In this document: piece by piece, positions 665-28,985 of the stretch | Position numbering within the stretch: position 1 is the stretch's first letter | Layout of the letters: every line of letters begins with the position of its first letter | IMG/VR virus record: IMGVR_UViG_3300029566_000004 | DNA: 64,000 nucleotides | Reading direction: 5' to 3' (one strand) | DNA from: a virus | Notes under the pieces: model-generated | Told to the model about the DNA's origin: nothing | What the model saw: the letters and a program-made list of their open reading frames with translations, nothing else | The model's database searches: none | Position numbers and translations under genes: made by a program

Positions 665-1219
665 TTAATACACTTTATTTTCATAAGGCGATTCTAAATA
701 TAAAACCTTTACTGATATTTTCGTATCATTTTCTGGACGTTCAAATGAATTCCACATACGAGTAACAATATCATCTGGTACAATAGCATGGTAAGCGCGC
801 TGATGATTACGCTTTATCGTTTCTTTTAACGAGGCTCTGATAACAAGCACCGTTACTTCAACATTGGACAAATCCAAACGCTTTAACACTTTTAAACGAG
901 ATTTTTCAGTTAAATGAGTTGCATCAGCATATATACGAGTAGGCCCTTTGGCATCATTCAGATAATTCTGAATAGTTTCAATAAATTCATTGAAAACTTC
1001 GGTTTCATGAGTAAAATAATGGTCGTCTTTAGACTGCATATAGCTAAAGCGAATTTCATCGCGAGATACTACAGCGCAATCAGAACCGATAGCATTTGCT
1101 CGCAACCAGGTGCTTTTCCCAGAGCCAGGAGCGCCGCACATCAAGAAAAGCTGTTTCTTTTCAGGCTCTTTATTAATCTCCACAGGTTTTTTTGATTTCT
1201 TAAAAAGATTAAATTCCAT
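665..1219 (-). CDS. P-loop kinase, polynucleotide 5'-kinase-like
   Basis: 184-aa ORF with Walker A GAPGSGKST; lies between two phosphoesterases and downstream of an RNA ligase. Confidence 0.6.
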   Translation of the reverse strand: MEFNLFKKSKKPVEINKEPEKKQLFLMCGAPGSGKSTWLRANAIGSDCAVVSRDEIRFSYMQSKDDHYFTHETEVFNEFIETIQNYLNDAKGPTRIYADATHLTEKSRLKVLKRLDLSNVEVTVLVIRASLKETIKRNHQRAYHAIVPDDIVTRMWNSFERPENDTKISVKVLYLESPYENKVY

Positions 1220-1946
1220 AGATATTTCCTTTCACACGGTCATAAAACGGTATATGCTCACAAGTGTCTAAATTTAATAGTATCGCTCCACCAGACCAAA
1301 AAGAACCATTATCGATATCGATTTTATGGTCATCACCATATATAAGCAGAGTAGGCTCATGCGGCACATCCATATGTAACTCATCGACTACAAAAGGAAT
1401 TGGAGTATGACCATGGACGCATACTTCATCGGGTCGCTCACCGTTATCTTCTGGCACAATCACCTTATCACGAAAATGATTTCTGTCCCAAATTAAATCT
1501 TCACGGATAGGCAAATCTTTACGATATGGAGTATATCCCGCATGCGATAAATGCCAAATTGTGTTATTTTTTTCACTAAAATAATCCATATGTATAGGCA
1601 GTGTGCGCAAACGATCCAACCATACTTTGCGCTCTTCTGGGGTCTCTTTTAACCAGCCCCTATATGTATCATAGCCGTCATTCACTATTACTAATTCAAG
1701 AGATTCATTGAAAGGATAGCCAGCAAGACACTCTTCCATGGCATTTATAAGCATATCTTCATGATTGCCCATCAGATAGATAAACTGCGGATTAGTGTAT
1801 ACAGCTTTGATTAATTCCCAGTTCTTATAACCACGATCGCCGCAATCGCCTAAACAAATTACTTTATCTTCTGGTTTAATATAATCGAGAATTTGCTCAT
1901 AAATATCATACATACCGTGTAGATCTGAACACACATACATCGACAT
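1209..1946 (-). CDS. lambda-phosphatase/ApaH-like metallophosphoesterase
   Basis: 245-aa ORF; motifs SDLHG, GDCGDRG, GNHE, HGHT; RBS and promoter upstream. Confidence 0.8.
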   Translation of the reverse strand: MSMYVCSDLHGMYDIYEQILDYIKPEDKVICLGDCGDRGYKNWELIKAVYTNPQFIYLMGNHEDMLINAMEECLAGYPFNESLELVIVNDGYDTYRGWLKETPEERKVWLDRLRTLPIHMDYFSEKNNTIWHLSHAGYTPYRKDLPIREDLIWDRNHFRDKVIVPEDNGERPDEVCVHGHTPIPFVVDELHMDVPHEPTLLIYGDDHKIDIDNGSFWSGGAILLNLDTCEHIPFYDRVKGNIYGI

Positions 1947-1977
1947 GTTAAATTTCTCCTTTTATTTTTCTATATAT

Positions 1978-2006
1978 ATTATAACAAATTTTTTTATAAA
2001 AATCAA
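1978..2006 (-). promoter_or_regulatory. class-1 promoter TTGATT-N17-TATAAT
   Basis: Minus strand: TTGATT at 2006-2001, 17-nt spacer, TATAAT at 1983-1978; member of a motif repeated about 18 times. Confidence 0.7.
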
Positions 2007-2028
2007 AGGCGGCTGTTATGCCGCCTTT
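2005..2028 (-). terminator. intrinsic terminator hairpin
   Basis: AAAGGCGGC-TGTTAT-GCCGCCTTT followed by a T run in the minus sense, directly after the stop at 2032. Confidence 0.6.
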
Positions 2029-2031
2029 TTC

Positions 2032-2205
2032 TCAATCCTTTTTCTTATTATCTAGCAGAAGTGAAATGTTTAAGCCGCAGCATTTATATTCTGAATTATA
2101 TAGCATACATTTCTCTTCAAAACATTCTTCGACCTTTTCGTTACCAGTAAAGGGATCTGTACGAGAACGCAATGGACAAAGTTTTATTTCTACAAGTCTA
2201 CCCAT
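2032..2205 (-). CDS. small Cys-rich protein
   Basis: ORF track 2032-2250 trimmed to the ATG at 2205, which has a GAGG RBS; the longer form overlaps the upstream gene. Confidence 0.45.
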   Translation of the reverse strand: MGRLVEIKLCPLRSRTDPFTGNEKVEECFEEKCMLYNSEYKCCGLNISLLLDNKKKD

Positions 2206-2212
2206 ATATACC

Positions 2213-3643
2213 TCACATTTCTGATGCGATATCTGCATCGGCAACATCAATTGCCTCTTCAGTTATAATACCAGATAAACACTTAAATGTGAAATTCTTG
2301 TGTTTATAGGCAGTAAATGAAGGACGATTTACAATACGGACCACTACACCTTCGCGCACATGGGTTTTACCTATTGGGTCTGGACCGTCGCAGTAAGTTT
2401 CAGCAGCTTCCATTACCCATTCTCCGGGAGTTTTAGTAACATAATCAATAATTCCTTCACTATTTAGATATAGAATATTGCGGTCATTACTATCTGGAAT
2501 GCGGAGCTGCTCAAACACAGGAACAGTTTTACAACCCATTTGCTCACAACGATAACGCATATAGTCAGGAGTATATTCTACGACATTGCCATCCTCATTA
2601 GTCATAGTCATACGATATACATAGAAATCAGACTGAGACACAGGCTCTGGGATGCTAAATACACTGATTTCATCACGATAGAATTTTTTGCGCTGACCAG
2701 TTGGCTCACAGCCATATGAGAATACAGTAGTAGGACCATACTGACGCTCAAATTCTTTATCGTTTAACTTTTTATTACTTACTGATCCCATAATAGGCGC
2801 ACCAGAAGTAGTAAAACCAACAACTTCGTAGAATACTTCTTCACCCTTATGAAGTTTGCCTTCGAAGAACTTTGCGTGTGGCTCACGGAATTCATTAGAG
2901 CCATAGAAACCGCCATCGAAATTGTCAAGTACAGTACGACGAGTACCAGTTACATAACCCCAATCATAAATTGGCTTGCCGGGACGACGGAATAGTTTGT
3001 CCCAAAAAGTGCGCTTCATACCCTTAAACACTGGCAGATAACCGGTGCGCTGAGAGGTGCCATGCAATTTGAGTGTAATCTCAATCTCGTCACCAGGCTT
3101 AAAAGCGTTAAGATTATACGCAAGTTGTTCAGTATCGGCGTGCTCGTTAAATAAAGGCGCAATAGGTATATTCTTAGGCTTATTCTTACGAGTGCGGTTT
3201 GGGCTATTAAATTCATTATGAGCCTTTACCTTAGGAATATATTTATCACAAATCCCGTGGCCATTAAGCTCATGGATAACAGCGCCTTCAGTTAAGAGAG
3301 ACATATCTACACCAGTATATGCTACTGAGTCAAGAGCCATAAAGATACCATCAGAAGGTTCTCCGCGCAAACGAATAGTCTTGATGTTGCGCTTATCAGG
3401 CTCAAGATATCCACCAACATTTTTACCAGTTTCATCCTTGCGACGTACAAGATTATTCTGTGCGCAAAACTCTTCGCTTAACTGAAGCCCAGATGGGAAA
3501 TAAATACCCATATCACCAAGTTTTACATCCAGACCAACGCAAGTTTCACAGTCAAAGAACTTAGCGATTTGTAACTTATTGGCGTTCATATGTGGACGCA
3601 ACTCTTTTACTTTCACTACATAACCACAGTGAGTAATACTCAT
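2213..3643 (-). CDS. RNA ligase (Rnl2/DraRnl-like nucleotidyltransferase)
   Basis: Motif I KLHGTS resembles T4 Rnl2 KIHGTN; later EGVVVRI and YKHKNF motifs; start trimmed to ATG 3643 with RBS AAAGGAG. Confidence 0.7.
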   Translation of the reverse strand: MSITHCGYVVKVKELRPHMNANKLQIAKFFDCETCVGLDVKLGDMGIYFPSGLQLSEEFCAQNNLVRRKDETGKNVGGYLEPDKRNIKTIRLRGEPSDGIFMALDSVAYTGVDMSLLTEGAVIHELNGHGICDKYIPKVKAHNEFNSPNRTRKNKPKNIPIAPLFNEHADTEQLAYNLNAFKPGDEIEITLKLHGTSQRTGYLPVFKGMKRTFWDKLFRRPGKPIYDWGYVTGTRRTVLDNFDGGFYGSNEFREPHAKFFEGKLHKGEEVFYEVVGFTTSGAPIMGSVSNKKLNDKEFERQYGPTTVFSYGCEPTGQRKKFYRDEISVFSIPEPVSQSDFYVYRMTMTNEDGNVVEYTPDYMRYRCEQMGCKTVPVFEQLRIPDSNDRNILYLNSEGIIDYVTKTPGEWVMEAAETYCDGPDPIGKTHVREGVVVRIVNRPSFTAYKHKNFTFKCLSGIITEEAIDVADADIASEM

Positions 3644-4515
3644 TTTATATCTCCTTTCTGAACAACAGTCCAATTTAAATTTTGATAAGTCAATTTATTC
3701 ATATCTGACCAAATAATTTTTTTTGCAAGTGCTTTGTTGTCACGCTTATACTTAGGCATTGTTTTACGAATATGATTACACAGCCAATCACAAGCCTCTG
3801 TAAAAGTATTAAAACTATGTTTAAGTGCTTTAGTATCAGCATCATAAGCATATATGCATTCAGTATTATTGATAATTGCTTTGCGTGCTTTAGGATCAAG
3901 GCCCAAACGTGTAACTGCGGGCTTTGTTCCTTTCGCTACGAGTGCAGATTTATTTATTTCTGTTTTAGGCTCATAGTCCGGGAAAGGATGACCTTTTACC
4001 GTACCTCCTTGGTTCACCTCATCAAAAACAATTTTGAGAAATTCGGCATCTTCAAGAGCATTATGCGTCTGAACGAATTCCTCTTTTTTATAATAATTTA
4101 CAACTTTAATAAGAGCAATTTCTTTAATTAATCCAAAATGATTTTTAACAGTAGGAGCATAATTCACAAGGTTAGCCGCAATCAAAGAAAGTGACATTTG
4201 TGCGGTTATGCTAGTAGCTTTTTTAATTGCTTTACGCACAAATGTTAAATCTGTATTGCCATAACAGAAAAAGCGGCAAGGTGTGCCATCATTATGTTCT
4301 AATACCCAATAGAAAAAATGAGTAAATACATCATCTAAACTGGGCGCCGCTTTATTCATTCCATCAGTAATACCAGTTAAATTAGTAATAAAAGAAGTAA
4401 TTTTCTTATCGGTATAAACCATACTGGAAAATTTTGCATCTGTCTCACTAACGCAACCAATTGAAATAATTTCATTGGAAAATTGTGTTGCTTCAAAGTC
4501 AATAAAATAATTCAT
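3640..4515 (-). CDS. DnaQ-like DEDDh 3'-5' exonuclease
   Basis: N-terminal FIDFEAT (Exo I) and HNALEDAEF (Exo III, DEDDh) motifs. Confidence 0.7.
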   Translation of the reverse strand: MNYFIDFEATQFSNEIISIGCVSETDAKFSSMVYTDKKITSFITNLTGITDGMNKAAPSLDDVFTHFFYWVLEHNDGTPCRFFCYGNTDLTFVRKAIKKATSITAQMSLSLIAANLVNYAPTVKNHFGLIKEIALIKVVNYYKKEEFVQTHNALEDAEFLKIVFDEVNQGGTVKGHPFPDYEPKTEINKSALVAKGTKPAVTRLGLDPKARKAIINNTECIYAYDADTKALKHSFNTFTEACDWLCNHIRKTMPKYKRDNKALAKKIIWSDMNKLTYQNLNWTVVQKGDIK

Positions 4516-4516
4516 T

Positions 4517-5359
4517 TTATACCTCTAAGAAACTTTTAAGTTTATTACTTCTTATAGGATTACGCAGTTTAGTCAATGCTCGCTCTTCAATCCGACGAAT
4601 CCATTCTCGACTATAACCAAGTATTGTACCCACTTCTTCAAGCGATCTTTGAGAATGCCCATCTATGCCAAAACGCAATTTAATTACTTCACGCTCTTTT
4701 TCAGGAAGGGTATCTAAAACGGTTGAAACCATGGTCTTTAATTCAATAGAATAAATAGCATCAATAGGATCAACAGAATTTTCATCTGCAATTAAATCTC
4801 CAATGGTTGTTTCATCTTCATCAGTAAGAATAGTATTAGTTGAAATAGGTTCTATAAAAAACGAAGTAATTTCTTCTACTTCTTTTGAAGTCAATCCCAT
4901 TGCTTTTGCAATTTGATGCTTGGTTGGCTCATGACCAAGAGCTTGACGCAATGCTTCTGTGGTTTTACGAATTTTATTATAAGTCTCTTGAACATTAGCG
5001 GGAATGCGTGCAGTGCGATTCTGATTAACAATTTCACGTCTAATCGCTTGTTTAATCCAATAAGTAGCATAAGTTGAAAATTTATTCGTAGAAGTCAAAT
5101 CAAATTTTTCAATTGCTGGAATAAGTCCTATACTACCGATAGAAATAAGATCATCATTATCAAGCCCAGAGCATGTATAACGTCCAGCAATAGATTTAAC
5201 AAGACGCATATTATGCATCATCAATTCATTACGTGCTTCAATGTCGCCAGTTTGAGCGCGCTTAAGTAATTCGCGTTCCTCTTCAAATGTTAACAAGTCA
5301 TAACTGTTCAGTTTAGCACGATAAGCATGTGAACTATTGATGTCATTAATTGTACTCAT
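4517..5359 (-). CDS. sigma-70 family RNA polymerase sigma factor
   Basis: Region 2 (FSTYATYWIKQAIRREI), region 3, and a region 4 HTH (LEEVGTILGYSREWIRRIEERALTKLR). Confidence 0.9.
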   Translation of the reverse strand: MSTINDINSSHAYRAKLNSYDLLTFEEERELLKRAQTGDIEARNELMMHNMRLVKSIAGRYTCSGLDNDDLISIGSIGLIPAIEKFDLTSTNKFSTYATYWIKQAIRREIVNQNRTARIPANVQETYNKIRKTTEALRQALGHEPTKHQIAKAMGLTSKEVEEITSFFIEPISTNTILTDEDETTIGDLIADENSVDPIDAIYSIELKTMVSTVLDTLPEKEREVIKLRFGIDGHSQRSLEEVGTILGYSREWIRRIEERALTKLRNPIRSNKLKSFLEV

Positions 5360-5406
5360 TGACTTCCCCCTTATTTATCTTTATCTTTCTTTGATTTTCT
5401 ATATAT

Positions 5407-10393: not shown

Positions 10394-10461
10394 AAAATTA
10401 TTTAATGAAGGGAGAGGATTTAATCCTCTCTCTTTAATTAATTTAAAGGAGATAAAGGTGT

Positions 10462-11616
10462 ATGAATTATAAGATTTGTATTTATGCAATTTGTAAAAAT
10501 GAAAAAGAATGGATTAATCGGTGGATAGATAATATGTCTGAAGCTGATTATATCGTTGTTTTAGATACAGGTTCAACCGATGGATCTTATGAAATGTTAA
10601 AAGAAGATTCTCGTATAACTCGTGTTGAATAGAAAATCATTAATCCTTGGCGTTTTGATGTAGCACGCAATGAATCAATGAAATTGGTTCCAGAAGATAC
10701 CGATATTTTTGTTTGTACTGACTTTGATGAAGTGTTTGAATAGGGATGGGCGCAAGTATTACGTGATAATTGGCAACCTGAAGATACAAGATGCTATTAT
10801 ACATATGCATGGTCACATAATGCTTTAGGTGAGCCTCAAGATGTATTTAAATATGATAAAATTCATGCAAAAAATTATCATTGGGTATTTCCAGTGCATG
10901 AAGTATTAGTTCCAAACGATTTAAGTAAACCAGAAGTTGCTTTAGACGCAGGCGAACATATTTATTTACATCATTTATAGGATATAAGTAAACCGCGCGC
11001 CTATTATTTTGATTTGCTTAAAATTGGCGTAGAAGAAAATCCTGCTAATTCGCATTGTTAGATGCTATTAGCGCGGGAATATTTACTTAAGCAAGAATAT
11101 GATAATGCGCTTGAAGCTTATGAAAAATGTTTACAATACGCTGATATTTATGAGCCTAACAAAAAAATGGTTTTATGTGAGACATATGGAAGATTAGGTG
11201 ATTTATATTATTGGCATAAGCACAACTTGAGCGAATCTGTTAAATATTTTAATAAATGGATTGAAGTTGACCGCACGTATCGTGAACCTTATTTTTGTTT
11301 GGCTGATATATATAATAATCAGGAACTTTATCCCTTAGCAATTGGATTAGTTACTACTGGATTAATCGTTGGTCAGCGTCATTATGATTGGGTTGAGCGC
11401 AAGGATAATTGGATTGCTAAAGGCGAAGAACTTTTATGCTATTCTTATTTAGGTTTAAAAGATTATTCTAATGCAATTGTACATGGTAAATTAGCATTAG
11501 CACATGACCCAAACAATGTAACGCTTTTACAAAAATATACAATGGCTCTTGAGGGTTCGATTGCAGGAATGACGCAATCAAATAATAATAGTAACGAATC
11601 ATTGCAAAAACTTTGA
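10462..11616 (+). CDS. family-2 glycosyltransferase fused to a TPR-like region (4 in-frame TAG)
   Basis: N-terminus ICIYAICKNE...VVLDTGSTDGS...CTDFDE (GT2 DxD); TAG at 10630, 10741, 10978, 11059; same frame as track ORF 11062-11616. Confidence 0.75.
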
Positions 11617-15434: not shown

Positions 15435-16964
15435 TTATTTAATTCGTGTATACATTTCTCCGTCGAGAACATCAAGCATAAGCTCAAACGCAGTTTTACC
15501 TTTCATAATCTGCTCAAATAGTACAGGACTGAAGCCGCTAACGAAGGTGATACCATCTTTTACAGTCATAGGAATATTATTCTGACGAGCTTGCACATTC
15601 CAAAAGATGAGATTAGGCATCTTTAGACCCCATGCACGCCATTTATCAGCAATATGTTCCATGAGAGCACCACTATTATTATCACTCCATAGACGCGCAG
15701 CATCAAATTCCATATCTGAGATGATGATTATATTCTGAGGAATATCTTCCTTCTTCACATCAGGACGAAGTGCTATTTTAAGAAGAAGATCAAAAGTAGC
15801 TTCAATATCAGTGTTTTCACAAAGATTAGTACGGTAAATACGTGCAACCTTATCACAGAAGTCAACACCTTCAGTAGCTATCCACTGAGGACGACTAGAG
15901 AAGCTAATGTAATGTCCTGCAAAAGGTCCTTTGTTGTGTTCGGCGCAATAAAGACCAAGAGAAATAGCAACATTAATAGGTGCAGATGCCTCACTGCCCC
16001 TCATAGAACCAGAAGTATCAACAACTGCAATGCCATTAAAGGTTGCGCCTTTAAAGTAATCAGTCAAATTCTCCCAATATTTATTAACTGCCAGACGATT
16101 TATATCATCAAGAGCAGGCTCAAAGTCACTACCAAAGTCACTACACCAACCTAAACTTTTCCGCATAACATTTGTGGCGGCTGCAACGCATTCATAAGGA
16201 TGAAGCGCCTTAGCATTAACCTTAGTTTTAGTATCCTTCATGAAGTCTTCATAAGTGGTTTTGCCGATTTTCTGACGTTCAATATCGTGACGAGCAAAAG
16301 CATTGCGATAAATCATACCGGCGCGAGAAGGAATTTTGTCAAATTCAATTTCATTCCAACGTTTTGCAGACATCAGTCTTTCAAGAACACGAATACGTTC
16401 ACGAAGGCTAGAAAGTGCTTTACGATACTCACGAGAAGTAAGATTAAACTTTTGGCGAGTAAGGGTTGCAAGCTGACGGCTCTCATGGCTAGAAGTATTT
16501 TCAGATTTAAGCCATTTAGCAAGCAAAGAGGGGGTCTTGCTCTTAAGATCAAGAACAAGCTGTTGCTTCATCAGGTAGAACATCTTATCCTCAACAGGAG
16601 TTCCTACAAGAGCATAAAGATCGTCCCAGCGACCATAAAAAGGAATGTTCTCAAGATTACGAATTACATCTTCAGGATGATTTTTTGCAAGCCAGTTAAG
16701 GACAACGCGGAAGTAACGACGCTCACCCTGGCCACCGCGTACGGAGCGCAAATAAAAAAGGCACTTAAGCGCACGAAGCGCATCTTCTTCATAAGCCTTC
16801 TTAAAGAGCAGAATGCAATCTGCGTTGGAGCGGGTACGGTACGCGCCACCGAGTGCAAACATATCAAGTAGACCGCTCATAGTAGACTTGTGAGTCAGAG
16901 CACCATTCTCGGTAACAGCATAGTTGTTCGCGTTATTCATTACGTTCATAAAAGTATTAGCCAT
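15435..16964 (-). CDS. helical-domain plus vWA protein (DUF2828-like, Ro60/TROVE-like architecture)
   Basis: 509 aa; N-terminus TENGALTHKST..LLDMFA.GGA.R; C-terminal MIDAS VVDTSGSM. The family name comes from memory of similar phage proteins. Confidence 0.6.
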   Translation of the reverse strand: MANTFMNVMNNANNYAVTENGALTHKSTMSGLLDMFALGGAYRTRSNADCILLFKKAYEEDALRALKCLFYLRSVRGGQGERRYFRVVLNWLAKNHPEDVIRNLENIPFYGRWDDLYALVGTPVEDKMFYLMKQQLVLDLKSKTPSLLAKWLKSENTSSHESRQLATLTRQKFNLTSREYRKALSSLRERIRVLERLMSAKRWNEIEFDKIPSRAGMIYRNAFARHDIERQKIGKTTYEDFMKDTKTKVNAKALHPYECVAAATNVMRKSLGWCSDFGSDFEPALDDINRLAVNKYWENLTDYFKGATFNGIAVVDTSGSMRGSEASAPINVAISLGLYCAEHNKGPFAGHYISFSSRPQWIATEGVDFCDKVARIYRTNLCENTDIEATFDLLLKIALRPDVKKEDIPQNIIIISDMEFDAARLWSDNNSGALMEHIADKWRAWGLKMPNLIFWNVQARQNNIPMTVKDGITFVSGFSPVLFEQIMKGKTAFELMLDVLDGEMYTRIK

Positions 16965-17042
16965 TTTTAATTCTCCTTTATTTTTTTGATGTTCTCTTGG
17001 ACAAGAGAATTTTTATTTTTGAACTTTTTAATTTACATATAT

Positions 17043-20610: not shown

Positions 20611-20684
20611 TGGTGCGGGGCTGCGGATTTGAACCGCTTTTTCAGCTTTTTAAAGCTGAGGGTATACCTTTAGCCTAACCCCGC
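20611..20684 (-). tRNA. tRNA-like gene with a non-canonical anticodon loop (UUUAAAAA)
   Basis: Good acceptor stem, T-arm and CCA. The anticodon stem CAGC/GCUG encloses 8 nt (6 nt if the U:A pair closes); a 7-nt loop is not possible. Confidence 0.5.
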
Positions 20685-20805
20685 AATATAAAACAAAACG
20701 TATTTTTCTTCACTCACTCAAAATAATTCATTTATTGCTACATACGTTTTTATATGGTGCGGATGGAGGGATTCGAACCCTCAAGGATTTCTCCCGACGG
20801 ATTTT

Positions 20806-21540
20806 CTTACTACTCTATGTTACCATAGCCGCATTATTGCGTTGTAGTCTGGATCATGTCTTCTCCATATCTTTCGACTTAGGAGGCTGGTGTATGATCT
20901 CTACACATTTACAATCTAAATGATTGATTTAGCTCGGCGTTATCCCAGTAGGACTTTCGCCGAATTAGCCAGCATTCACTCAGAAGATTTCTCACTCTGG
21001 TGCTCTATTTGCAGAAATAGTATTTTTTCTTCTACGCCAATTTGGAGTATAAGAATGACAGTTTGGACATAATAATTGAAGATTTTCTAAACGATTGTCT
21101 GTCCTATCTCCATTAATATGATGGATTTCAAGAGTAATTGGTTGTCCTAACCACTCTGTTAATCCACAGCATTCACATTTACGTCCTCTCAATTTAATTA
21201 AAGGATTTAATGTTGTGCTGCCATTCTTTTTAATTGAATTTACTGTAAATAATGTGTAATCATAATTCTCATGATTCCATGCTTGTCCTAAAAAATGTGA
21301 GGTATCAAGTTGAAGTTCTTGACACATTTTATTTAATGAAGTTAATGCTCCGCCACTGTCTCTTGCATATCCAAGGGCTATTGCAACTTCACGCATAGAC
21401 TACGCATTTTTTACAATTTCTTCAATTTGTTCTTTTGAAAAAGATTTCCATTTTGGTTCTCTTGCCATAATATAGACCTCCTTTTTTCTTGTCTATTTAT
21501 TATGGCAGAGGCGATAGATATTTTAATCTACTCTGCCCAA
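20806..21540 (-). mobile_element. group-I-like intron carrying an HNH endonuclease ORF
   Basis: Exon ends in U. A possible P1 pairs exon ACUU with intron GAGU (U.G at the splice site). The intron ends in G. About 258 nt lie outside the ORF. Confidence 0.6.
20992..21468 (-). CDS. HNH homing endonuclease (1 in-frame TAG)
   Basis: CECCG...EIHHINGDRTDNRLENLQLLCPNCH. Strong RBS before ATG 21468; TAG at 21402-21400 is in frame with track ORF 20992-21396. Confidence 0.8.
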
Positions 21541-21608
21541 AAGTCCGTTGTGTATGCCATTCCACCACATCCGCACAGTAAGTTTTCATTTCTTTTTCTT
21601 ACATATAT

Positions 21609-21769: not shown

Positions 21770-21858
21770 TGGCTGGGGTGGAGGGATTCGAACCCCCATC
21801 TTTCGCCTCAGAAGCCCGGCATTTAGAGTGCCGTGTGTTGCCATTACACCACACCCCA
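21770..21858 (-). tRNA. amber suppressor tRNA(CUA), tRNA-Gln-like acceptor, 19-nt variable region
   Basis: Loop CUCUAAA; U1:A72, G2:C71, G3:C70, G73 and CCA as in E. coli tRNA-Gln; variable region GGCUUCUGAGGCGAAAGAU. Confidence 0.8.
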
Positions 21859-22688: not shown

Positions 22689-22777
22689 AAGACGATTGAA
22701 ATTTATAGGAATCGAACCTACTCAAACAAGGATACAGCCTGTTTTTAAACCATATATAAAATTGCAGAAATCGTCTT
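22689..22777 (-). ncRNA. tRNA-like / Y-RNA-like structured RNA
   Basis: 8-bp terminal stem AAGACGAU/AUCGUCUU encloses a canonical T-arm UAGGUUCGAUUCCUA and extra hairpins. Not a cloverleaf. Lies directly downstream of promoter 22796-22824. Confidence 0.35.
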
Positions 22778-24231: not shown

Positions 24232-24381
24232 TGGCTGAGGTGGCAGGATTTGAACCTGCGAATGCGGGAGTCTGGCAGGCGGCTAAGGATTTGAACCTTA
24301 ATCTTTAGTTTTGGAGGCTATTATGTTACCGTTACACCAACCACCTAAAGTCCCGTGCCTTAACCTCTTGGCTACACCTCA
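24232..24381 (-). tRNA. tRNA-Gln(UUG) split between U35 and G36 by a 74-nt tRNA-like insert
   Basis: Halves 24381-24347 and 24272-24232 join into a perfect 76-nt cloverleaf (U1:A72, G73, loop CUUUGAC, CCA) resembling E. coli tRNA-Gln. Confidence 0.7.
24273..24346 (-). tRNA. tRNA-Trp(CCA)-like gene nested inside the tRNA-Gln anticodon loop
   Basis: Own cloverleaf with CCA and loop CUCCAAA; weak anticodon stem (3 bp); clear paralog of tRNA-Trp 23257-23330. Confidence 0.65.
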
Positions 24382-25313: not shown

Positions 25314-25478
25314 ATATATAACTAAGTTTTGCTTTCGTTGTCTTTTTATTTTTGTGTGCTGCTAAATGACAATGCCACATATGGATTATATCCCCGGTGG
25401 TAGTTGAAACTTAGAAAATCCATCCTTTCCGCACACTTTGGCGCTCCCGGTAGGACTTGAACCTACGACGCGGTGGTT

Positions 25479-25946
25479 GCTTACACATCAGCTTACCAAT
25501 TCTTTACTACTTCCTCCAATTCATAATTTTTCGCCCAAGTAATACCTCTTACTTGACCATTTTTTGTAGGAAGAATACGAAGTCTTTTATCTGCTCCGCA
25601 CTCCTCAACTGGAACTAAATAACATTTTCCATTAAAAGTAGTTACGAAGTAATCAATTTCCTCGTTTGAGTATGTATGATGCACAATCTTACCATCTTTT
25701 CTATTACAACTTCTACAAGAAAATTTGAATGATGCACCATCATCTTCGGTATTTGATGTTTTAGCTTGAACTCGAATAAACTTTCCATTAACATCTACTA
25801 CAAAGTCATATCTCTCACAATCTCCATATGGAGTTAAAACATTATAACCAAGTTTTAGAAATGCTAACATTGTTTCAAGTTCTGTAATATTTCCTTTTTG
25901 TTTACTATTCATTTATCTTTTCATAAAGAATAGATAAGGTCAGGTA
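25479..25946 (-). mobile_element. intervening sequence that is almost entirely a PD-(D/E)XK endonuclease ORF
   Basis: Only 34 nt upstream and about 14 nt downstream of ORF 25493-25912 lie outside coding sequence. Confidence 0.6.
25493..25912 (-). CDS. PD-(D/E)XK homing endonuclease, I-Ssp6803I-like
   Basis: 139 aa; GNITE...LGYNVLTPYGD.ERYDFVVD....IRVQAKT matches the D...(E/Q)xK core of intron-associated PD-(D/E)XK nucleases (family recalled from memory). Confidence 0.6.
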   Translation of the reverse strand: MNSKQKGNITELETMLAFLKLGYNVLTPYGDCERYDFVVDVNGKFIRVQAKTSNTEDDGASFKFSCRSCNRKDGKIVHHTYSNEEIDYFVTTFNGKCYLVPVEECGADKRLRILPTKNGQVRGITWAKNYELEEVVKNW

Positions 25947-25988
25947 AACAGCCACCTGCTCTGCCAGCTGAGCTACAGGAGCATATAT

Positions 25989-26223: not shown

Positions 26224-26295
26224 ATTTTAAGATTGGAGTCGAACCAATGACCTTCAGTTTTGCAGACTGATGCTCTACCTCTGAGCTACTCTCCC
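26224..26295 (-). pseudogene. tRNA-Cys(GCA)-like gene with a broken acceptor stem
   Basis: D, anticodon (CUGCAAA) and T arms are intact, but 5' GGGAGAG cannot pair with 3' CUUAAAA. Confidence 0.45.
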
Positions 26296-27599: not shown

Positions 27600-28229
27600 T
27601 TATTTAGAAAATTTCCAAATATATCCATAAGCAGTTTTTCGTTTTCCTTTACAAACATCTGAAATATGACTAATTCCGCCTCTAGATGTTGATTCTGGAC
27701 AAACTGTTTTATAGGCTTCAGATAAAGAAGGAAAAGTTCTTAAATATTTACCATTTTTATCATATTGATTAATGATACATCCAAATTTTTCTTGATTAAT
27801 TTTTTCTTGAGATTTTATCTCAATATTATACTTTTTCAAAATTTGACTTAAATAGTTTCTATCACAATGATATATTTGACTTATTTCTTCTAAGTTAGGA
27901 TTTTCTTTATAAGCAAAAATTAAAACATCATAATCTAAATAGCGTTTTCCATCGCCCCCTAAAGTGGCATTATATCCATTTTTAAAAGAACGATAATGTT
28001 CAATCCAGTACTTTTCTCTTTCTTCTGGATTATTTGTTTCTTCTATCTGCTCGATATGAAAATGTTCAATTCCATATTTGCGCATCGCCGCATATAGCGG
28101 TCTTTTTTCATTTCTATCTCGAAAAGCATCTTGACAATGTTCTTTAAATCTTTTTTCAATAGAAAATTCTGTTTTGCCAATATAAATTTTCTAATTTATA
28201 TCATTAACAATTTTATAAATGTATGCCAT
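27600..28229 (-). CDS. GIY-YIG homing endonuclease, free-standing (1 in-frame TAG)
   Basis: N-terminus MAYIYKIVNDIN[TAG]KIYIGKT...R...H; ATG 28229 with RBS AAGGAG; TAG at 28193-28191. Confidence 0.75.
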
Positions 28230-28314
28230 AATTAAACAGCTCCTTTTTATTTTTTTGAATTAGTATTAGTTATAACAGAAGAAACCACGTGAAGGTTCTA
28301 ATTCATTTTCTTCC

Positions 28315-28387
28315 TGGCGCCACGAGGATTCGAACCCACGATTACCAGATTGAGAAACTGGTTGCCTAGCCATTAGCAGATGGCGTC
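28315..28387 (-). tRNA. tRNA-Glu(CUC), second copy
   Basis: Loop UUCUCAA; imperfect T stem (bulged U) and an A2.C71 mismatch. Confidence 0.6.
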
Positions 28388-28823: not shown

Positions 28824-28871
28824 TAACATACTCCTTTGATTAAATTTACAAGACACTTTTTTGTTATTATT

Positions 28872-28935
28872 ACTCTGCCAACTGAGCTACCAGTCCAAAT
28901 GAACTGGATAGGATTCAAACCTGCGGCAACGAGAA
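28872..28935 (-). other. permuted tRNA halves (3' half, then 4-nt linker, then 5' half) in a 5' leader
   Basis: The minus strand reads a T-arm plus CCAGUUC, then AUUU, then GGACUGG UA GCUC AGUUGGCA GAG. The two acceptor strands are complementary. Confidence 0.4.
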
Positions 28936-28985
28936 ATAATTTAATCTTATTTGCTGTTAGTGTCTTTCCTTTTTCTTACATATAT

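What the first reader, a model, noticed from the sequence alone, without database searches (positions are those of the whole stretch)
20755..21574. tRNA-Leu(UAA) carries a group-I-like intron at the classic U34/A35 site, with a TAG-containing HNH ORF
The exons (21574-21541 and 20805-20755) join into an 85-nt class-II tRNA-Leu with loop CUU|AAAA. The 735-nt insert begins after a U. It can form a P1-like pairing (exon ACUU with intron GAGU, giving U.G at the splice site) and it ends in G. About 258 nt lie outside the ORF, which is enough for a compact group I core. The insertion site is the same as in the ancient cyanobacterial and plastid trnL(UAA) intron. The intron ORF is an HNH endonuclease whose 23rd codon is TAG, so the homing enzyme can only be made when suppression is active. 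A trnL(UAA)-type intron in a phage tRNA array is unusual.
Basis: partly seen in the sequence, partly recalled or inferred. Interest (0 to 1): 0.7.

Follow-up and report, generated by a model that had tools for sequence, protein, structure and literature searches.

The report
Mobile self-splicing intron in phage tRNA-Leu
A phage leucine-tRNA gene is split by a group I (most likely self-splicing) intron that carries its own DNA-cutting 'homing' enzyme gene, readable only when the phage suppresses the TAG stop codon; such introns prove common in phage tRNA genes, where a 2014 review said none were known.

Summary
Window 21574-20755 (- strand) is an 85-nt tRNA-Leu(UAA) gene split between U34 and A35 by a 735-nt insert. 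The insert is a group I intron of the compact tRNA type. Rfam RF00028 matches it over the full model at 42-43 bits, below the cut-off of 50, but phage homologs score 51-62 and cyanobacterial trnL introns 76-86. On 14 phage homologs my P2-P9 structure pairs in 94% of cells (31-40% in slid controls), and 38 of 56 pairs show double changes. The HNH reading frame runs through the TAG at codon 23. The phage has a CUA suppressor tRNA 200 nt away and other genes with in-frame TAGs. The family is widespread: in dozens of IMG/VR phage contigs, in bacteria of many phyla, and probably, unannotated, in cultured phage Atu_ph07. Self-splicing, homing and the timing role of TAG are inferred, not shown. It is a new variant of a known kind and moderately interesting.

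The parts
21541..21574 (-). tRNA-Leu(UAA) 5' exon (34 nt, ends ...GGACUU; U34 is the last base)
20806..21540 (-). group I intron, 735 nt
   Evidence: ARAGORN -i; RF00028 hit; comparative structure
20755..20805 (-). tRNA-Leu(UAA) 3' exon (51 nt, starts AAAAUCC, includes the encoded CCA)
21504..21537 (-). leader hairpin 1 (GGCAGAG...CUCUGCC), starting 3 nt after the 5' splice site; the GGCA/UGCC base is kept in most relatives; function unexplained (possibly protects the 5' end of the excised intron RNA)
   Evidence: fold, z = -3.4 for the whole leader; leaders of relatives
21467..21503 (-). leader hairpin 2: a TATAAATA-like box pairs with the segment containing the AUG, with the Shine-Dalgarno sequence in the loop; candidate translational control or internal promoter region
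   Evidence: weak sigma-70-like match TTAAAA-16-CATAAT at 21526-21499
21477..21483 (-). Shine-Dalgarno sequence AAGGAGG of the HNH ORF
20992..21468 (-). HNH homing-endonuclease ORF, 158 sense codons plus UGA stop, in the P1 loop; its 3' end overlaps the guide sequence and the 5' strand of P2
   Evidence: Pfam HNH_3 31.8 bits and HNH 23.4 bits; phrog_10822 E 2e-43 over residues 6-151; 1373 homologs
21400..21402 (-). in-frame TAG, codon 23 of the HNH ORF
   Evidence: conserved coding sequence on both sides
21003..21005 (-). internal guide sequence GAG that pairs with exon CUU (U.G at the splice site); the base 5' of it (A, 21006) pairs with intron nt +1 (U)
   Evidence: invariant in alignment A2; same position in ORF-less phage and bacterial introns; the +1 / guide-minus-1 pair holds in 13 of 15 introns with five pair types
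20981..20999 (-). P2 hairpin CAGAG(U)GA-GAAA-UCUUCUG with a GAAA tetraloop; contains the ORF stop codon UGA
   Evidence: 7 of 7 pairs with changes on both sides
20886..20973 (-). P3 (GCUGGC 20973-20968 with ACCAGC 20891-20886), enclosing P4, P5, P6 and the 5' strand of P7
   Evidence: 6 of 6 P3 pairs with changes on both sides
20934..20963 (-). P4 (UCGGCG/CGCCGA) and P5 (GUCC...GGAU)
   Evidence: P4 96% of cells paired, P5 86%
20912..20926 (-). P6 hairpin (CAAUC/GAUUG); of variable length in relatives, and the site of ORF insertion in a second group of these introns
20851..20901 (-). P7 pseudoknot (GAGAUCAU 20901-20894 with AUGAUCC 20857-20851), enclosing the P3 3' strand and P8; the window carries two compensated base-pair swaps relative to the family consensus GACUAU/AUAGUC
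20863..20885 (-). P8 with an 11-nt tetraloop-receptor motif (CCUAAG...UAUGG) and a GAAA loop
20809..20848 (-). P9 domain: P9 (ACUAC/GUAGU), P9a (CGCA/UGCG) and P9b (CUAUG/CAUAG with a GUAA loop)
   Evidence: P9 99% of cells paired, P9b 100% with 5 of 5 double changes
20806..20806 (-). terminal G of the intron (omega G)
   Evidence: invariant in A2
21770..21858 (-). context: suppressor tRNA(CUA), 89 nt, about 200 nt upstream in the same array; needed to read the TAG

Best explanation
This is a functional tRNA-Leu(UAA) gene of a TAG-recoded phage, interrupted in the anticodon loop (U34|A35) by a mobile group I intron of the compact tRNA type found in bacterial tRNA genes. Shown by sequence and comparison: the intron has a conserved guide sequence GAG, P2 with a GAAA loop, P3 to P9 with the P3/P7 pseudoknot, a receptor motif in P8 and a terminal G. 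The HNH gene lies in the P1 loop, between the 5' splice site and the guide sequence. Its reading frame continues through the TAG at codon 23, and its last 11 codons overlap the guide sequence and P2. Inferred: the pre-tRNA splices itself with a guanosine cofactor to give the tRNA that reads UUA, the phage's commonest leucine codon. The HNH protein cuts intronless tRNA-Leu(UAA) genes in co-infecting phages, so repair copies the intron in (homing). More speculative: the early TAG, together with a leader hairpin that buries the AUG, keeps ribosomes off the guide sequence and P2 until the suppressor tRNA is active. On this view splicing comes first and endonuclease synthesis later.
For: Split tRNA. 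Group I fold: RF00028 matches the full model at 41.6-42.8 bits, E 5e-9 to 1.5e-7. Phage homologs score 50.7-61.7 bits and cyanobacterial trnL introns 76-86. On 14 distinct phage introns my structure pairs in 94.4% of cells against 31-40% when slid, 38 of 56 pairs change on both sides, and 0 of 500 shuffles reach the observed values. Guide sequence: GAG is invariant, sits just 5' of P2 in ORF-less phage and bacterial introns too, and the adjacent long-range pair covaries in 13 of 15 introns. HNH: Pfam HNH_3 and HNH are above their cut-offs. The phrog alignment and 27 homologs run across the TAG, and the Cys4, His and Asn residues are invariant. TAG recoding: a CUA suppressor tRNA is present. 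A glycosyltransferase domain spans two TAGs and a GIY-YIG domain spans one. HNH homologs in other lineages carry TAGs at other codons, some aligned with conserved Gln. Mobility: ORF-less, ORF-in-P1-loop and ORF-in-P6 forms all occur, HNH homologs stand alone next to intact tRNA-Leu genes, and intronless alleles exist. Need for the tRNA: TTA is 36% of Leu codons. Timing: the first TAG lies within codons 7-30 in all 8 TAG-bearing lineages; leader hairpins.
Against: No experiment or transcript data: self-splicing, homing and timing are all inferred. RF00028 is below its curated threshold for this copy. P1 is short (3 exon pairs plus 1) and must form across about 530 nt. P10 is weak or absent in this copy. 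Translation from the internal AUG (Met25, 21396-21394) cannot be excluded, although no Shine-Dalgarno sequence precedes it. The amino acid inserted at TAG is unknown: the suppressor tRNA has a long variable arm and G73, which looks Ser-like, whereas alignments in other lineages suggest Gln. The early-TAG bias rests on 8 lineages that are not fully independent. The internal promoter is only a weak consensus match (10 hits in the region against 5.3 expected).
Confidence: 0.85

Rival explanations
1. The insert is a decayed or non-splicing insertion, and this tRNA-Leu copy is a pseudogene; the host's tRNA-Leu(UAA) serves the phage.
For: RF00028 is below its gathering score. One relative, L031, has clearly lost the catalytic core while keeping the HNH ORF, so decay does happen in this family.
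Against: All core helices are intact in the window. Its deviations from the consensus are compensated pair swaps, for example two in P7. The guide sequence, the terminal G and the exon cloverleaf are perfect. Nearly identical copies persist in at least seven independent contigs. No other tRNA-Leu(UAA) is found in the window, although TTA is the top Leu codon.
Confidence: 0.07
2. TAG is a real stop. The 22-codon upstream frame is a short leader peptide or non-coding, and the endonuclease starts at Met25 (21396), so no suppression is needed.
For: An in-frame ATG lies two codons after the TAG. The catalytic HNH domain is entirely downstream of it.
Against: Residues 1-22 are conserved in homologs, with M1 and W7 invariant, and the phrog_10822 alignment starts at residue 6. 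The strong Shine-Dalgarno sequence precedes the first ATG, not Met25. Homologs in other lineages have TAGs deep inside the catalytic region, at codons 109 and 131, where no restart could rescue them. Other window genes have domains that span TAGs.
Confidence: 0.08
3. One reading: P1 forms locally between exon ACUU and intron GAGU (nt 8-11), and the ORF lies in a P2-type loop.
For: The four-base complementarity exists in the window and its closest relatives.
Against: Relatives with homologous leaders have GACU or GACG at that place, which breaks the pairing. GAGU lies inside the strong leader hairpin 1. The GAG just 5' of P2 is invariant and occupies the position of the guide sequence in all ORF-less phage and bacterial tRNA-Leu introns.
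Confidence: 0.04
4. The insert is removed by proteins (an endonuclease plus the phage RNA ligase) rather than by self-splicing.
For: The window encodes an Rnl-type RNA ligase (weak match), a metallophosphoesterase and an RNase T-like exonuclease. Other tRNA genes in the array carry inserts with no ribozyme: a PDDEXK_5 ORF in tRNA-Asp and a whole tRNA nested in another.
Against: A complete group I core supported by covariation is present and would be unnecessary. Members of the same intron family occur in bacteria of many phyla without this phage gene set.
Confidence: 0.03

Closest known systems
[quoted passage not shown] 1990 and Kuhsel et al. 1990, as cited in PMC3984707)
   Same: Same host gene and the same insertion site between U34 and A35. 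Same opening architecture: short P1, guide sequence UUGAG(C/U), then P2 with a GAAA loop. The core is homologous: the phage profile aligns end to end with 50 bacterial tRNA-Leu introns, and RF00028 hits both.
   Different: The host is a phage. This intron carries an HNH endonuclease gene in the P1 loop, whereas the classical trnL introns are ORF-less (my knowledge). It is nearer to introns of Proteobacteria, Acidobacteriota and Bacteroidota (up to 104 bits) than to cyanobacterial ones (28-54 bits). The P9 domain is a three-way junction specific to this family.
Azoarcus tRNA-Ile(CAU) intron, the structural model for the compact subgroup IC3 (cited in PMC3984707)
   Same: Compact core of about 200 nt in a tRNA anticodon loop, a GAAA tetraloop in P2, an 11-nt receptor motif CCUAAG...UAUGG in P8, and near-identical P4 and R elements. 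The comparison with the Azoarcus sequence is from my memory and was not run.
   Different: Different tRNA and insertion site. Azoarcus has no ORF and a local P1.
Synechocystis tRNA-fMet intron encoding I-Ssp6803I (Bonocora and Shub 2001, cited in PMC3984707)
   Same: A tRNA anticodon-loop group I intron that carries a homing endonuclease aimed at the anticodon region of the tRNA gene.
   Different: That enzyme is a PD-(D/E)XK protein, not an HNH, and the host is a cyanobacterium. The window does encode a PDDEXK_5 relative, but inside a different tRNA gene (tRNA-Asp) and with no recognisable ribozyme.
Phage T4 td, nrdB and sunY introns with I-TevI and I-TevII (PMC2988022; the regulation is from my knowledge of Gott et al. 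1988)
   Same: A phage group I intron with a homing endonuclease ORF. The endonuclease start region is buried in a hairpin whose 5' arm looks like a TATAAATA late-promoter box. The ORF touches core sequence, so expression must be restrained.
   Different: The T4 introns are in protein-coding genes, belong to other subgroups, have their ORFs in P6 or P9 loops, and do not use stop-codon recoding.
Recoded intron endonuclease in 'Agate' phages (Borges et al. preprint, 10.1101/2021.08.26.457843), and introns with recoded ORFs in crAss-like phages (PMC7886860)
   Same: A group I intron endonuclease gene with in-frame recoded stop codons in a stop-codon-recoded gut phage. The authors proposed that the stops delay endonuclease production until late in infection.
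   Different: Those cases are TGA or TAG in introns of protein-coding genes. Here the host gene is a tRNA that itself belongs to the translation apparatus, and the ORF physically overlaps the guide sequence and P2.
Phage T4 SegB, a free-standing homing endonuclease in the tRNA gene cluster (PMC13096335 abstract; my knowledge)
   Same: Homing endonucleases that live in and mobilise phage tRNA arrays. HNH homologs stand alone next to intact tRNA-Leu genes in many phages, and a GIY-YIG/NUMOD1 gene lies in this window's array.
   Different: SegB is free-standing and is not inside an intron.

Membership tests
Group I intron (Rfam RF00028) | Covariance-model score at or above the curated gathering score (50 bits) | tested here: not met
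   41.6 bits in the local search and 42.8 bits in the whole-window search, full model 1-253, E 5e-9 and 1.5e-7; not listed at gathering threshold. Homologs of the same alignment pass: L011 61.7, L022 59.6, L005 59.0, L068 57.6, L008 50.7.
Group I intron (Rfam RF00028) | 5' splice site follows a U that forms a U.G pair with an internal guide sequence (P1) | tested here: met
   Exon ...CUU with an invariant GAG at 21005-21003. The neighbouring pair (intron +1 with the base 5' of GAG) holds in 13 of 15 introns with five pair types. The three exon pairs themselves are invariant, so they give no covariation evidence.
Group I intron (Rfam RF00028) | Intron ends in G (omega G) | tested here: met
   G at 20806, invariant in all 14 aligned introns.
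Group I intron (Rfam RF00028) | Conserved core P3-P8 with the P3/P7 pseudoknot, maintained by compensatory change | tested here: met
   94.4% of cells paired against 31-40% when slid; 38 of 56 pairs with changes on both sides; 0 of 500 shuffles reach the observed values. P3 6/6, P7 3/7 and P8 3/7 pairs with double changes; the remaining pairs are mostly invariant.
Group I intron (Rfam RF00028) | Guanosine-initiated self-splicing | not testable with these tools
   Needs in vitro transcription and splicing, or RNA data.
tRNA-Leu(UAA) anticodon-loop intron (bacterial/plastid trnL type, subgroup IC3) | Insertion between U34 and A35 of tRNA-Leu(UAA) | tested here: met
   ARAGORN on the spliced and unspliced sequence; the same junction CUU|...G|AAAAUC as in 50 bacterial introns.
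tRNA-Leu(UAA) anticodon-loop intron (bacterial/plastid trnL type, subgroup IC3) | Sequence homology of the core to cellular tRNA-Leu introns | tested here: met
   The profile of the phage cores aligns over its full length (model positions 4-208) with bacterial tRNA-Leu introns: 104 bits for the best (a Gammaproteobacteria MAG), 28-54 bits for cyanobacteria.
tRNA-Leu(UAA) anticodon-loop intron (bacterial/plastid trnL type, subgroup IC3) | IC3 peripheral design (P2 GAAA tetraloop, 11-nt receptor in P8, GNRA loop in P9) | tested here: inconclusive
   The motifs are present and conserved. No subgroup classifier was available, the defining list is from my memory of the Azoarcus structure, and tertiary docking cannot be tested.
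HNH endonuclease (Pfam PF13392 HNH_3, PF01844 HNH) | Profile score above the Pfam gathering score | tested here: met
   HNH_3 31.8 against 24.8; HNH 23.4 against 21.4; phrog_10822 E 2.2e-43.
HNH endonuclease (Pfam PF13392 HNH_3, PF01844 HNH) | Catalytic His/Asn residues and zinc-binding cysteines intact | tested here: met
   C98, C101, H116, H117, N129, C134, N136, C137 and H138 are invariant across 28 sequences.
Homing endonuclease (function) | Site-specific cleavage of the intronless allele, followed by copying of the intron | not testable with these tools
   Indirect only: intron presence/absence, ORF presence/absence, and free-standing homologs beside intact tRNA-Leu genes.
Stop-codon-recoded (TAG) phage gene | In-frame TAG flanked on both sides by conserved coding sequence | tested here: met
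   likewise for a glycosyltransferase and a GIY-YIG gene in the window.
Stop-codon-recoded (TAG) phage gene | Cognate suppressor tRNA(CUA) encoded by the genome | tested here: met
   21770-21858, 58.5 bits for the Rfam tRNA model.
Stop-codon-recoded (TAG) phage gene | Identity of the amino acid inserted at TAG | tested here: inconclusive
   TAGs in other lineages align with conserved Gln at positions 109 and 131. Position 23 is variable, and this window's suppressor tRNA has a long variable arm and G73.

The most novel reading that the evidence does not exclude
[quoted passage not shown] This would help explain how the 'ancient' trnL intron came to be scattered over many bacterial phyla. In stop-codon-recoded phages the element has also gained a timing switch: an early in-frame TAG stops ribosomes before they reach the guide sequence and P2, which lie inside the ORF. 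The tRNA is therefore spliced first, and the endonuclease is made only once the neighbouring suppressor tRNA is active.
Probability: 0.4. Interest if true: 0.75.

Novelty: new variant of a known kind. Interest (0 to 1): 0.62.

Why it matters
A 2014 review of bacterial group I introns (PMC3984707) states that every phage intron known then sat in a protein-coding gene, despite the many phage tRNA genes. Ten full-text searches found no later report to the contrary. The data here show the opposite at scale:
- Introns of this tRNA type, with and without homing endonuclease genes, interrupt tRNA-Leu(UAA) and several other tRNA genes in dozens of phage contigs.
- A candidate copy lies unannotated in a cultured jumbo phage, because standard tRNA finders miss such genes. 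Phage tRNA repertoires are therefore under-counted.
- The tRNA-Leu intron, long used as a marker of ancient vertical descent in cyanobacteria and plastids, has a plausible mobile form and a plausible vector.
- The overlap of the endonuclease ORF with the ribozyme's guide sequence, combined with an early recoded stop codon, offers a simple and testable case of stop-codon recoding used to order two incompatible uses of one RNA.

Tried and rejected
2. My own idea of a long-range P1 extension between GCAGA (nt 5-9) and UCUGC just upstream of the guide sequence fits the window but not L001, L005 or other relatives. Rejected.
3. A regex for exon junctions picked up an AAAATC inside the ORF and gave false introns. 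I replaced it with ARAGORN boundaries plus manual correction for L020, L029 and L064.
4. ARAGORN run with long introns allowed gives many false positives that join halves of neighbouring tRNAs. I accepted only calls whose 3' end coincided with a profile hit to the intron core.
5. The 14-mer viral scan might have been mostly chance matches; filtering with the core profile showed 84 of 120 loci are real.
6. Megablast of 20 kb of the window against GenBank phages found nothing, so the phage lineage is unnamed. Blastn of the intron region found only HNH-gene matches.
7. The sigma-70 promoter scan was inconclusive: 10 hits against 5.3 +/- 2.4 expected.
8. The ORF-length comparison under alternative codes does not discriminate, because treating TGA or TAA as sense raises it even more. 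I replaced it with domain alignments that span TAGs.
9. RF00028 gave no hit at E <= 1e-3 on the Atu_ph07 locus, so that intron rests on ARAGORN and the family profile only.
10. An exact 16-mer search for the outer nested tRNA in viral contigs gave three chance matches.
11. Position 23 = Gln in the closest database homologs is not evidence, because those proteins were called with a TAG=Gln code.
Full report
**1. The observation**

On the minus strand, 21574-21541 and 20805-20755 join into an 85-nt tRNA-Leu(UAA). It has a long variable arm, the anticodon loop CUUAAAA and an encoded CCA. Default ARAGORN and the Rfam tRNA model miss it. ARAGORN with introns allowed reports tRNA-Leu c[20755,21574] with a 735-nt intron at position 35. 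The insert follows a U and ends in G. It holds an ORF (21468-20992) of 158 sense codons behind an AAGGAGG Shine-Dalgarno sequence, with TAG as codon 23 (21402-21400). 72 + 186 = 258 nt lie outside the ORF.

**2. Is it a group I intron?**

At Rfam's gathering threshold nothing is reported. With permissive thresholds RF00028 matches 20827/9-21024 on the minus strand over the entire model (1-253) at 41.6-42.8 bits (cut-off 50), E 5e-9 locally and 1.5e-7 for the window. It is the only group I hit in 64 kb.

I calibrated this score on relatives with the same model:

| Intron | RF00028 bits |
|---|---|
| Cyanobacterial tRNA-Leu introns | 76-86 |
| Other bacterial tRNA-Leu introns | 56-63 |
| Phage homologs L011, L022, L005, L068, L008 | 50.7-61.7 |
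| Phage homolog L021 | 47.4 |
| Window | 41.6-42.8 |

The window copy is a divergent member of a family whose other members pass.

Independent support comes from comparison. I aligned 14 distinct phage tRNA-Leu introns from the guide sequence to the terminal G (alignment A2). I wrote out P2, P3, P4, P5, P6, P7 (as a pseudoknot), P8, P9, P9a and P9b from the window sequence. 94.4% of cells form standard pairs, against 31-40% when the 3' partners are slid by 1-3 columns. 38 of 56 pairs change on both sides, and no shuffle out of 500 reaches any observed measure. The window's low Rfam score is partly explained by two compensated swaps in P7 (GAUCAU/AUGAUC instead of GACUAU/AUAGUC), which cost sequence score but keep the helix.

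**3.

That tetramer reads GACU or GACG in L005, L008, L011 and L019, whose leaders are otherwise homologous. It also lies inside a stable local hairpin.

A GAG(C/U) immediately 5' of P2 is invariant in all phage introns. It is also present in ORF-less ones (L068, 198 nt), in those with the ORF elsewhere (L041, L046) and in 50 bacterial tRNA-Leu introns, where it closes a short local P1. In the window it is at 21005-21003.

So P1 is CUU/GAG with U.G at the splice site. One further pair forms between intron nt +1 and the base 5' of GAG. That pair is kept in 13 of 15 introns as U-A, C-G, U-G, G-U or G-C. The HNH gene therefore sits in the P1 loop, about 530 nt separate the two strands of P1, and the last 11 codons of the ORF run through the guide sequence and the 5' strand of P2. 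The UGA stop is part of P2.

P2 ends in a GAAA tetraloop, P8 carries the 11-nt receptor motif CCUAAG...UAUGG, and P9b ends in GUAA. From my memory of the Azoarcus structure this is the design of the compact IC3 tRNA introns. I could not run a subgroup classifier. P10 is weak or absent in this copy.

**4. The ORF and the TAG**

The protein matches Pfam HNH_3 and HNH above their cut-offs. It matches phrog_10822 at E 2e-43 over residues 6-151, that is, across the TAG. 1373 homologs were found. In an alignment of 28, M1 and W7 upstream of the TAG are invariant, as are the four cysteines and the His/Asn catalytic residues. The Gln at position 23 in the two closest database proteins is not evidence, because those genes were called with a TAG=Gln code and their loci contain TAG.

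Recoding in this genome is supported in several ways:
- A tRNA(CUA) lies 200 nt upstream.
- A glycosyltransferase domain spans two TAGs in ORF 10456-11616.
- A GIY-YIG domain spans a TAG in ORF 27600-28259.
- HNH homologs in other lineages have TAGs at codons 30 and 131; 16, 53, 109 and 153; 16, 46 and 158; and so on. Two of these align with strongly conserved Gln.

A restart at Met25 cannot be excluded for the window copy. It has no Shine-Dalgarno sequence, however, and would not rescue the homologs.

**5. Relatives and distribution**

The HNH family is tied to tRNA-Leu genes.
- In L001-L012, L015-L029 and others it lies inside a tRNA-Leu(UAA) intron at the same site, with introns of 724-1087 nt.
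- In L013/L014, L033, L037, L039, L040, L044-L047, L052 and others it stands alone next to an intact tRNA-Leu gene.
84 of those loci contain a real homolog of the core. At least 35, and probably about 50, are tRNA-Leu(UAA) introns. Their lengths fall into two groups: 192-208 nt (ORF-less) and about 670-1090 nt.
- ORFs occur either in the P1 loop or in P6, and in P6 in either orientation.
- Related cores interrupt tRNA-Asn, -Thr, -Ala, -Ser, -Arg, -Pro, CAU tRNAs and a CUA suppressor tRNA.
- Among deposited phage genomes, three unannotated huge-phage assemblies carry the ORF-less form. The cultured Agrobacterium jumbo phage Atu_ph07 has an unannotated tRNA-Leu(UAA) split at the same site by 278 nt that match the family profile, although RF00028 gave no hit there. 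Its genome paper used tRNAscan-SE and never mentions introns.
- A genome scan found the same intron in tRNA-Leu(UAA) of many bacterial phyla (52 of 120 loci). Six of these are 680-850 nt long and encode the same HNH family.
- The phage profile scores non-cyanobacterial introns highest (up to 104 bits) and cyanobacterial ones lowest (28-54 bits).
- Intronless alleles with the identical anticodon arm occur in 92 viral contigs.

**6. How it most likely works**

Shown: the gene structure, the fold, the intact endonuclease frame, and its dependence on TAG read-through.

Inferred from established group I and homing biology: guanosine-initiated self-splicing gives tRNA-Leu(UAA), which reads UUA, 36% of leucine codons in the window's long ORFs. 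The HNH enzyme cuts intronless tRNA-Leu genes of co-infecting genomes, and repair copies the intron.

More speculative is the ordering of these two events. Ribosomes translating the full ORF would unwind the guide sequence and P2, so translation and splicing of one molecule exclude each other. Three features look like restraints on translation.
- The first in-frame TAG lies at codon 7, 9, 16, 16, 17, 20, 23 or 30 in all eight TAG-bearing lineages. The product of the per-lineage chance values is 4e-4, but the lineages are not independent.
- A leader hairpin pairs a TATAAATA-like box with the AUG region. The box is kept in relatives and is exact in L022 and L025. This recalls the control of the T4 intron endonucleases (my knowledge).
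- A second homing endonuclease gene in the array (GIY-YIG, 27600-28259) also has an early TAG, at codon 13.

Borges et al. proposed such a delay for a TGA-recoded intron endonuclease in a protein-coding gene. A conserved hairpin 3 nt after the 5' splice site remains unexplained.

**7. Novelty**

The kind is known: a group I intron in tRNA-Leu(UAA), an HNH homing endonuclease, and recoded stops in intron ORFs. New, as far as ten full-text searches and the papers I read show, are four things: the phage tRNA gene as host, an endonuclease-bearing mobile form of the trnL intron, the ORF in the P1 loop overlapping the guide sequence, and the combination with TAG recoding. The 2014 review states that all phage introns known then were in protein-coding genes. 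Later phage-intron papers I checked do not mention tRNA hosts. The library lacks most subscription journals, so a prior report cannot be excluded.

**8. Limits**

There are no RNA or biochemical data. Both collection scans were cut at 120 rows, so the counts are lower bounds and not random samples. The structure was derived from the window sequence, which favours it in the slid control, although not in the double-change counts. The phage lineage and its host are unidentified.

Noticed in passing
window 24232-24381 (- strand); also L048/L049 2778-2930, L087 4972-5124, L007 2960-3113: A tRNA nested inside a tRNA. A perfect 76-nt cloverleaf with anticodon UUA (it would read the UAA stop codon), a 7-bp acceptor stem and an encoded CCA is interrupted between nt 36 and 37 by exactly the 74-nt tRNA-Trp(CCA) gene (24346-24273) that ARAGORN and Rfam call on their own. 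The same layout, with other tRNA identities, occurs in four other phage contigs. Control: 4 of 687 distinct tRNAs with their own flanks against 0 of 6870 with swapped flanks. RNase P and RNase Z release of the inner tRNA would leave 3'-OH and 5'-P halves that an ATP-dependent RNA ligase could join; that is speculation.
   Followed up: partly
window 25439-25982 (- strand); also L002 1265-1799, L005/L006 3950-4490: tRNA-Asp(GUC), a perfect cloverleaf, is split between nt 35 and 36 by 468 nt that are almost entirely an ORF (25912-25493). The ORF is a full-length PDDEXK_5 protein (PF11645, E 6e-32) and matches PDB 2OST at E 4e-9 (I-Ssp6803I from my memory). There is a U before the insert and a G at its end, the insert ends are complementary, there is no room for a group I core and no RF00028 hit. 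The same ORF type splits tRNA-Ser and tRNA-Ala in related phages. An intact tRNA-Asp(GUC) lies 7 nt upstream (26065-25989). It is either a gene broken by a homing endonuclease gene or an insert removed by proteins.
   Followed up: partly
window 27600-28259 (- strand): A free-standing GIY-YIG + NUMOD1 homing endonuclease gene sits inside the tRNA array, with an in-frame TAG at its 13th codon.
   Followed up: partly
window 21770-21858 (- strand): The suppressor tRNA(CUA) is 89 nt long with a long variable arm and G at the discriminator position, which is a Ser-like shape. Alignments of TAG positions in related phages suggest Gln instead. The decoded amino acid is unresolved.
   Followed up: partly
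window 20611-20684 (- strand); also in L004 and L016: A 74-nt tRNA has an 8-nt anticodon loop (UUUAAAAA; ARAGORN reads a four-base anticodon UAAA) directly downstream of the split tRNA-Leu. The Rfam tRNA score is only 34.5 bits. It is conserved in close relatives.
   Followed up: no
window 1209-5374 and 15435-17012 (- strand); 28844-28951: A cluster of RNA-repair and processing-like genes: metallophosphoesterase (1209-1961), Rnl-type RNA ligase (2213-3694; phrog_968, Pfam RNA_ligase below its cut-off), RNase T-like exonuclease (3640-4524) and a sigma-70 family factor (4517-5374). Also a DUF2828/DUF7788 protein that PHROGs labels RNA-binding (15435-17012) and a weak YrlA (Y RNA-like) hit at 31.6 bits against a cut-off of 69.
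   Followed up: no
L189 872-1233 (Agrobacterium phage Atu_ph07, MF403008.1 about 112890-113250): A cultured jumbo phage has an unannotated tRNA-Leu(UAA) split at the same site by a 278-nt insert that matches the phage intron profile (E 1.6e-13 and 1.2e-9), though not RF00028 at E <= 1e-3. GenBank annotates a hypothetical protein over part of it, and the genome paper reports 33 tRNAs and no introns.
   Followed up: partly
L102, L151, L183 (Asn); L157, L162 (Thr); L114, L158 (Ala); L163, L174 (Ser); L155 (Arg); L076 (Pro); L188 (CAU); L144 (CUA suppressor): Homologous intron cores of about 200-360 nt interrupt many other phage tRNA genes, including a suppressor tRNA. tRNA assignments are ARAGORN calls, or 3'-exon sequence only for L188, and were not individually checked.
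   Followed up: no
L243 (Arcicella MAG), L310, L242, L250, L297, L298: Bacterial (or prophage, or mis-binned) tRNA-Leu(UAA) introns of 680-850 nt encode the same HNH family. The gene is in the sense orientation upstream of the core in L243 and L310, and antisense in the others.
   Followed up: partly
L031 1387-2284: A tRNA-Leu(UAA) is interrupted by an HNH-bearing insert that has lost the P3-P8 core and does not end in G at the expected place. It is probably a decayed intron and a dead tRNA gene.
   Followed up: no
window 26230-26290, 28315-28387, 22697-22765 (- strand): Three Rfam tRNA hits are not called by ARAGORN. One is partial (model 6-65, 55.3 bits) and two are low-scoring (38.8 and 29.6 bits). 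They may be degenerate or unusual tRNAs in the array.
   Followed up: no
window 21504-21537 (- strand) and the homologous leaders of L001-L029: A conserved hairpin starts 3 nt after the 5' splice site, with a GGCA/UGCC base and an AAAAUUUU-rich loop. No known group I element occupies this position. It may stabilise the excised intron as an mRNA or contain a promoter element.
   Followed up: partly
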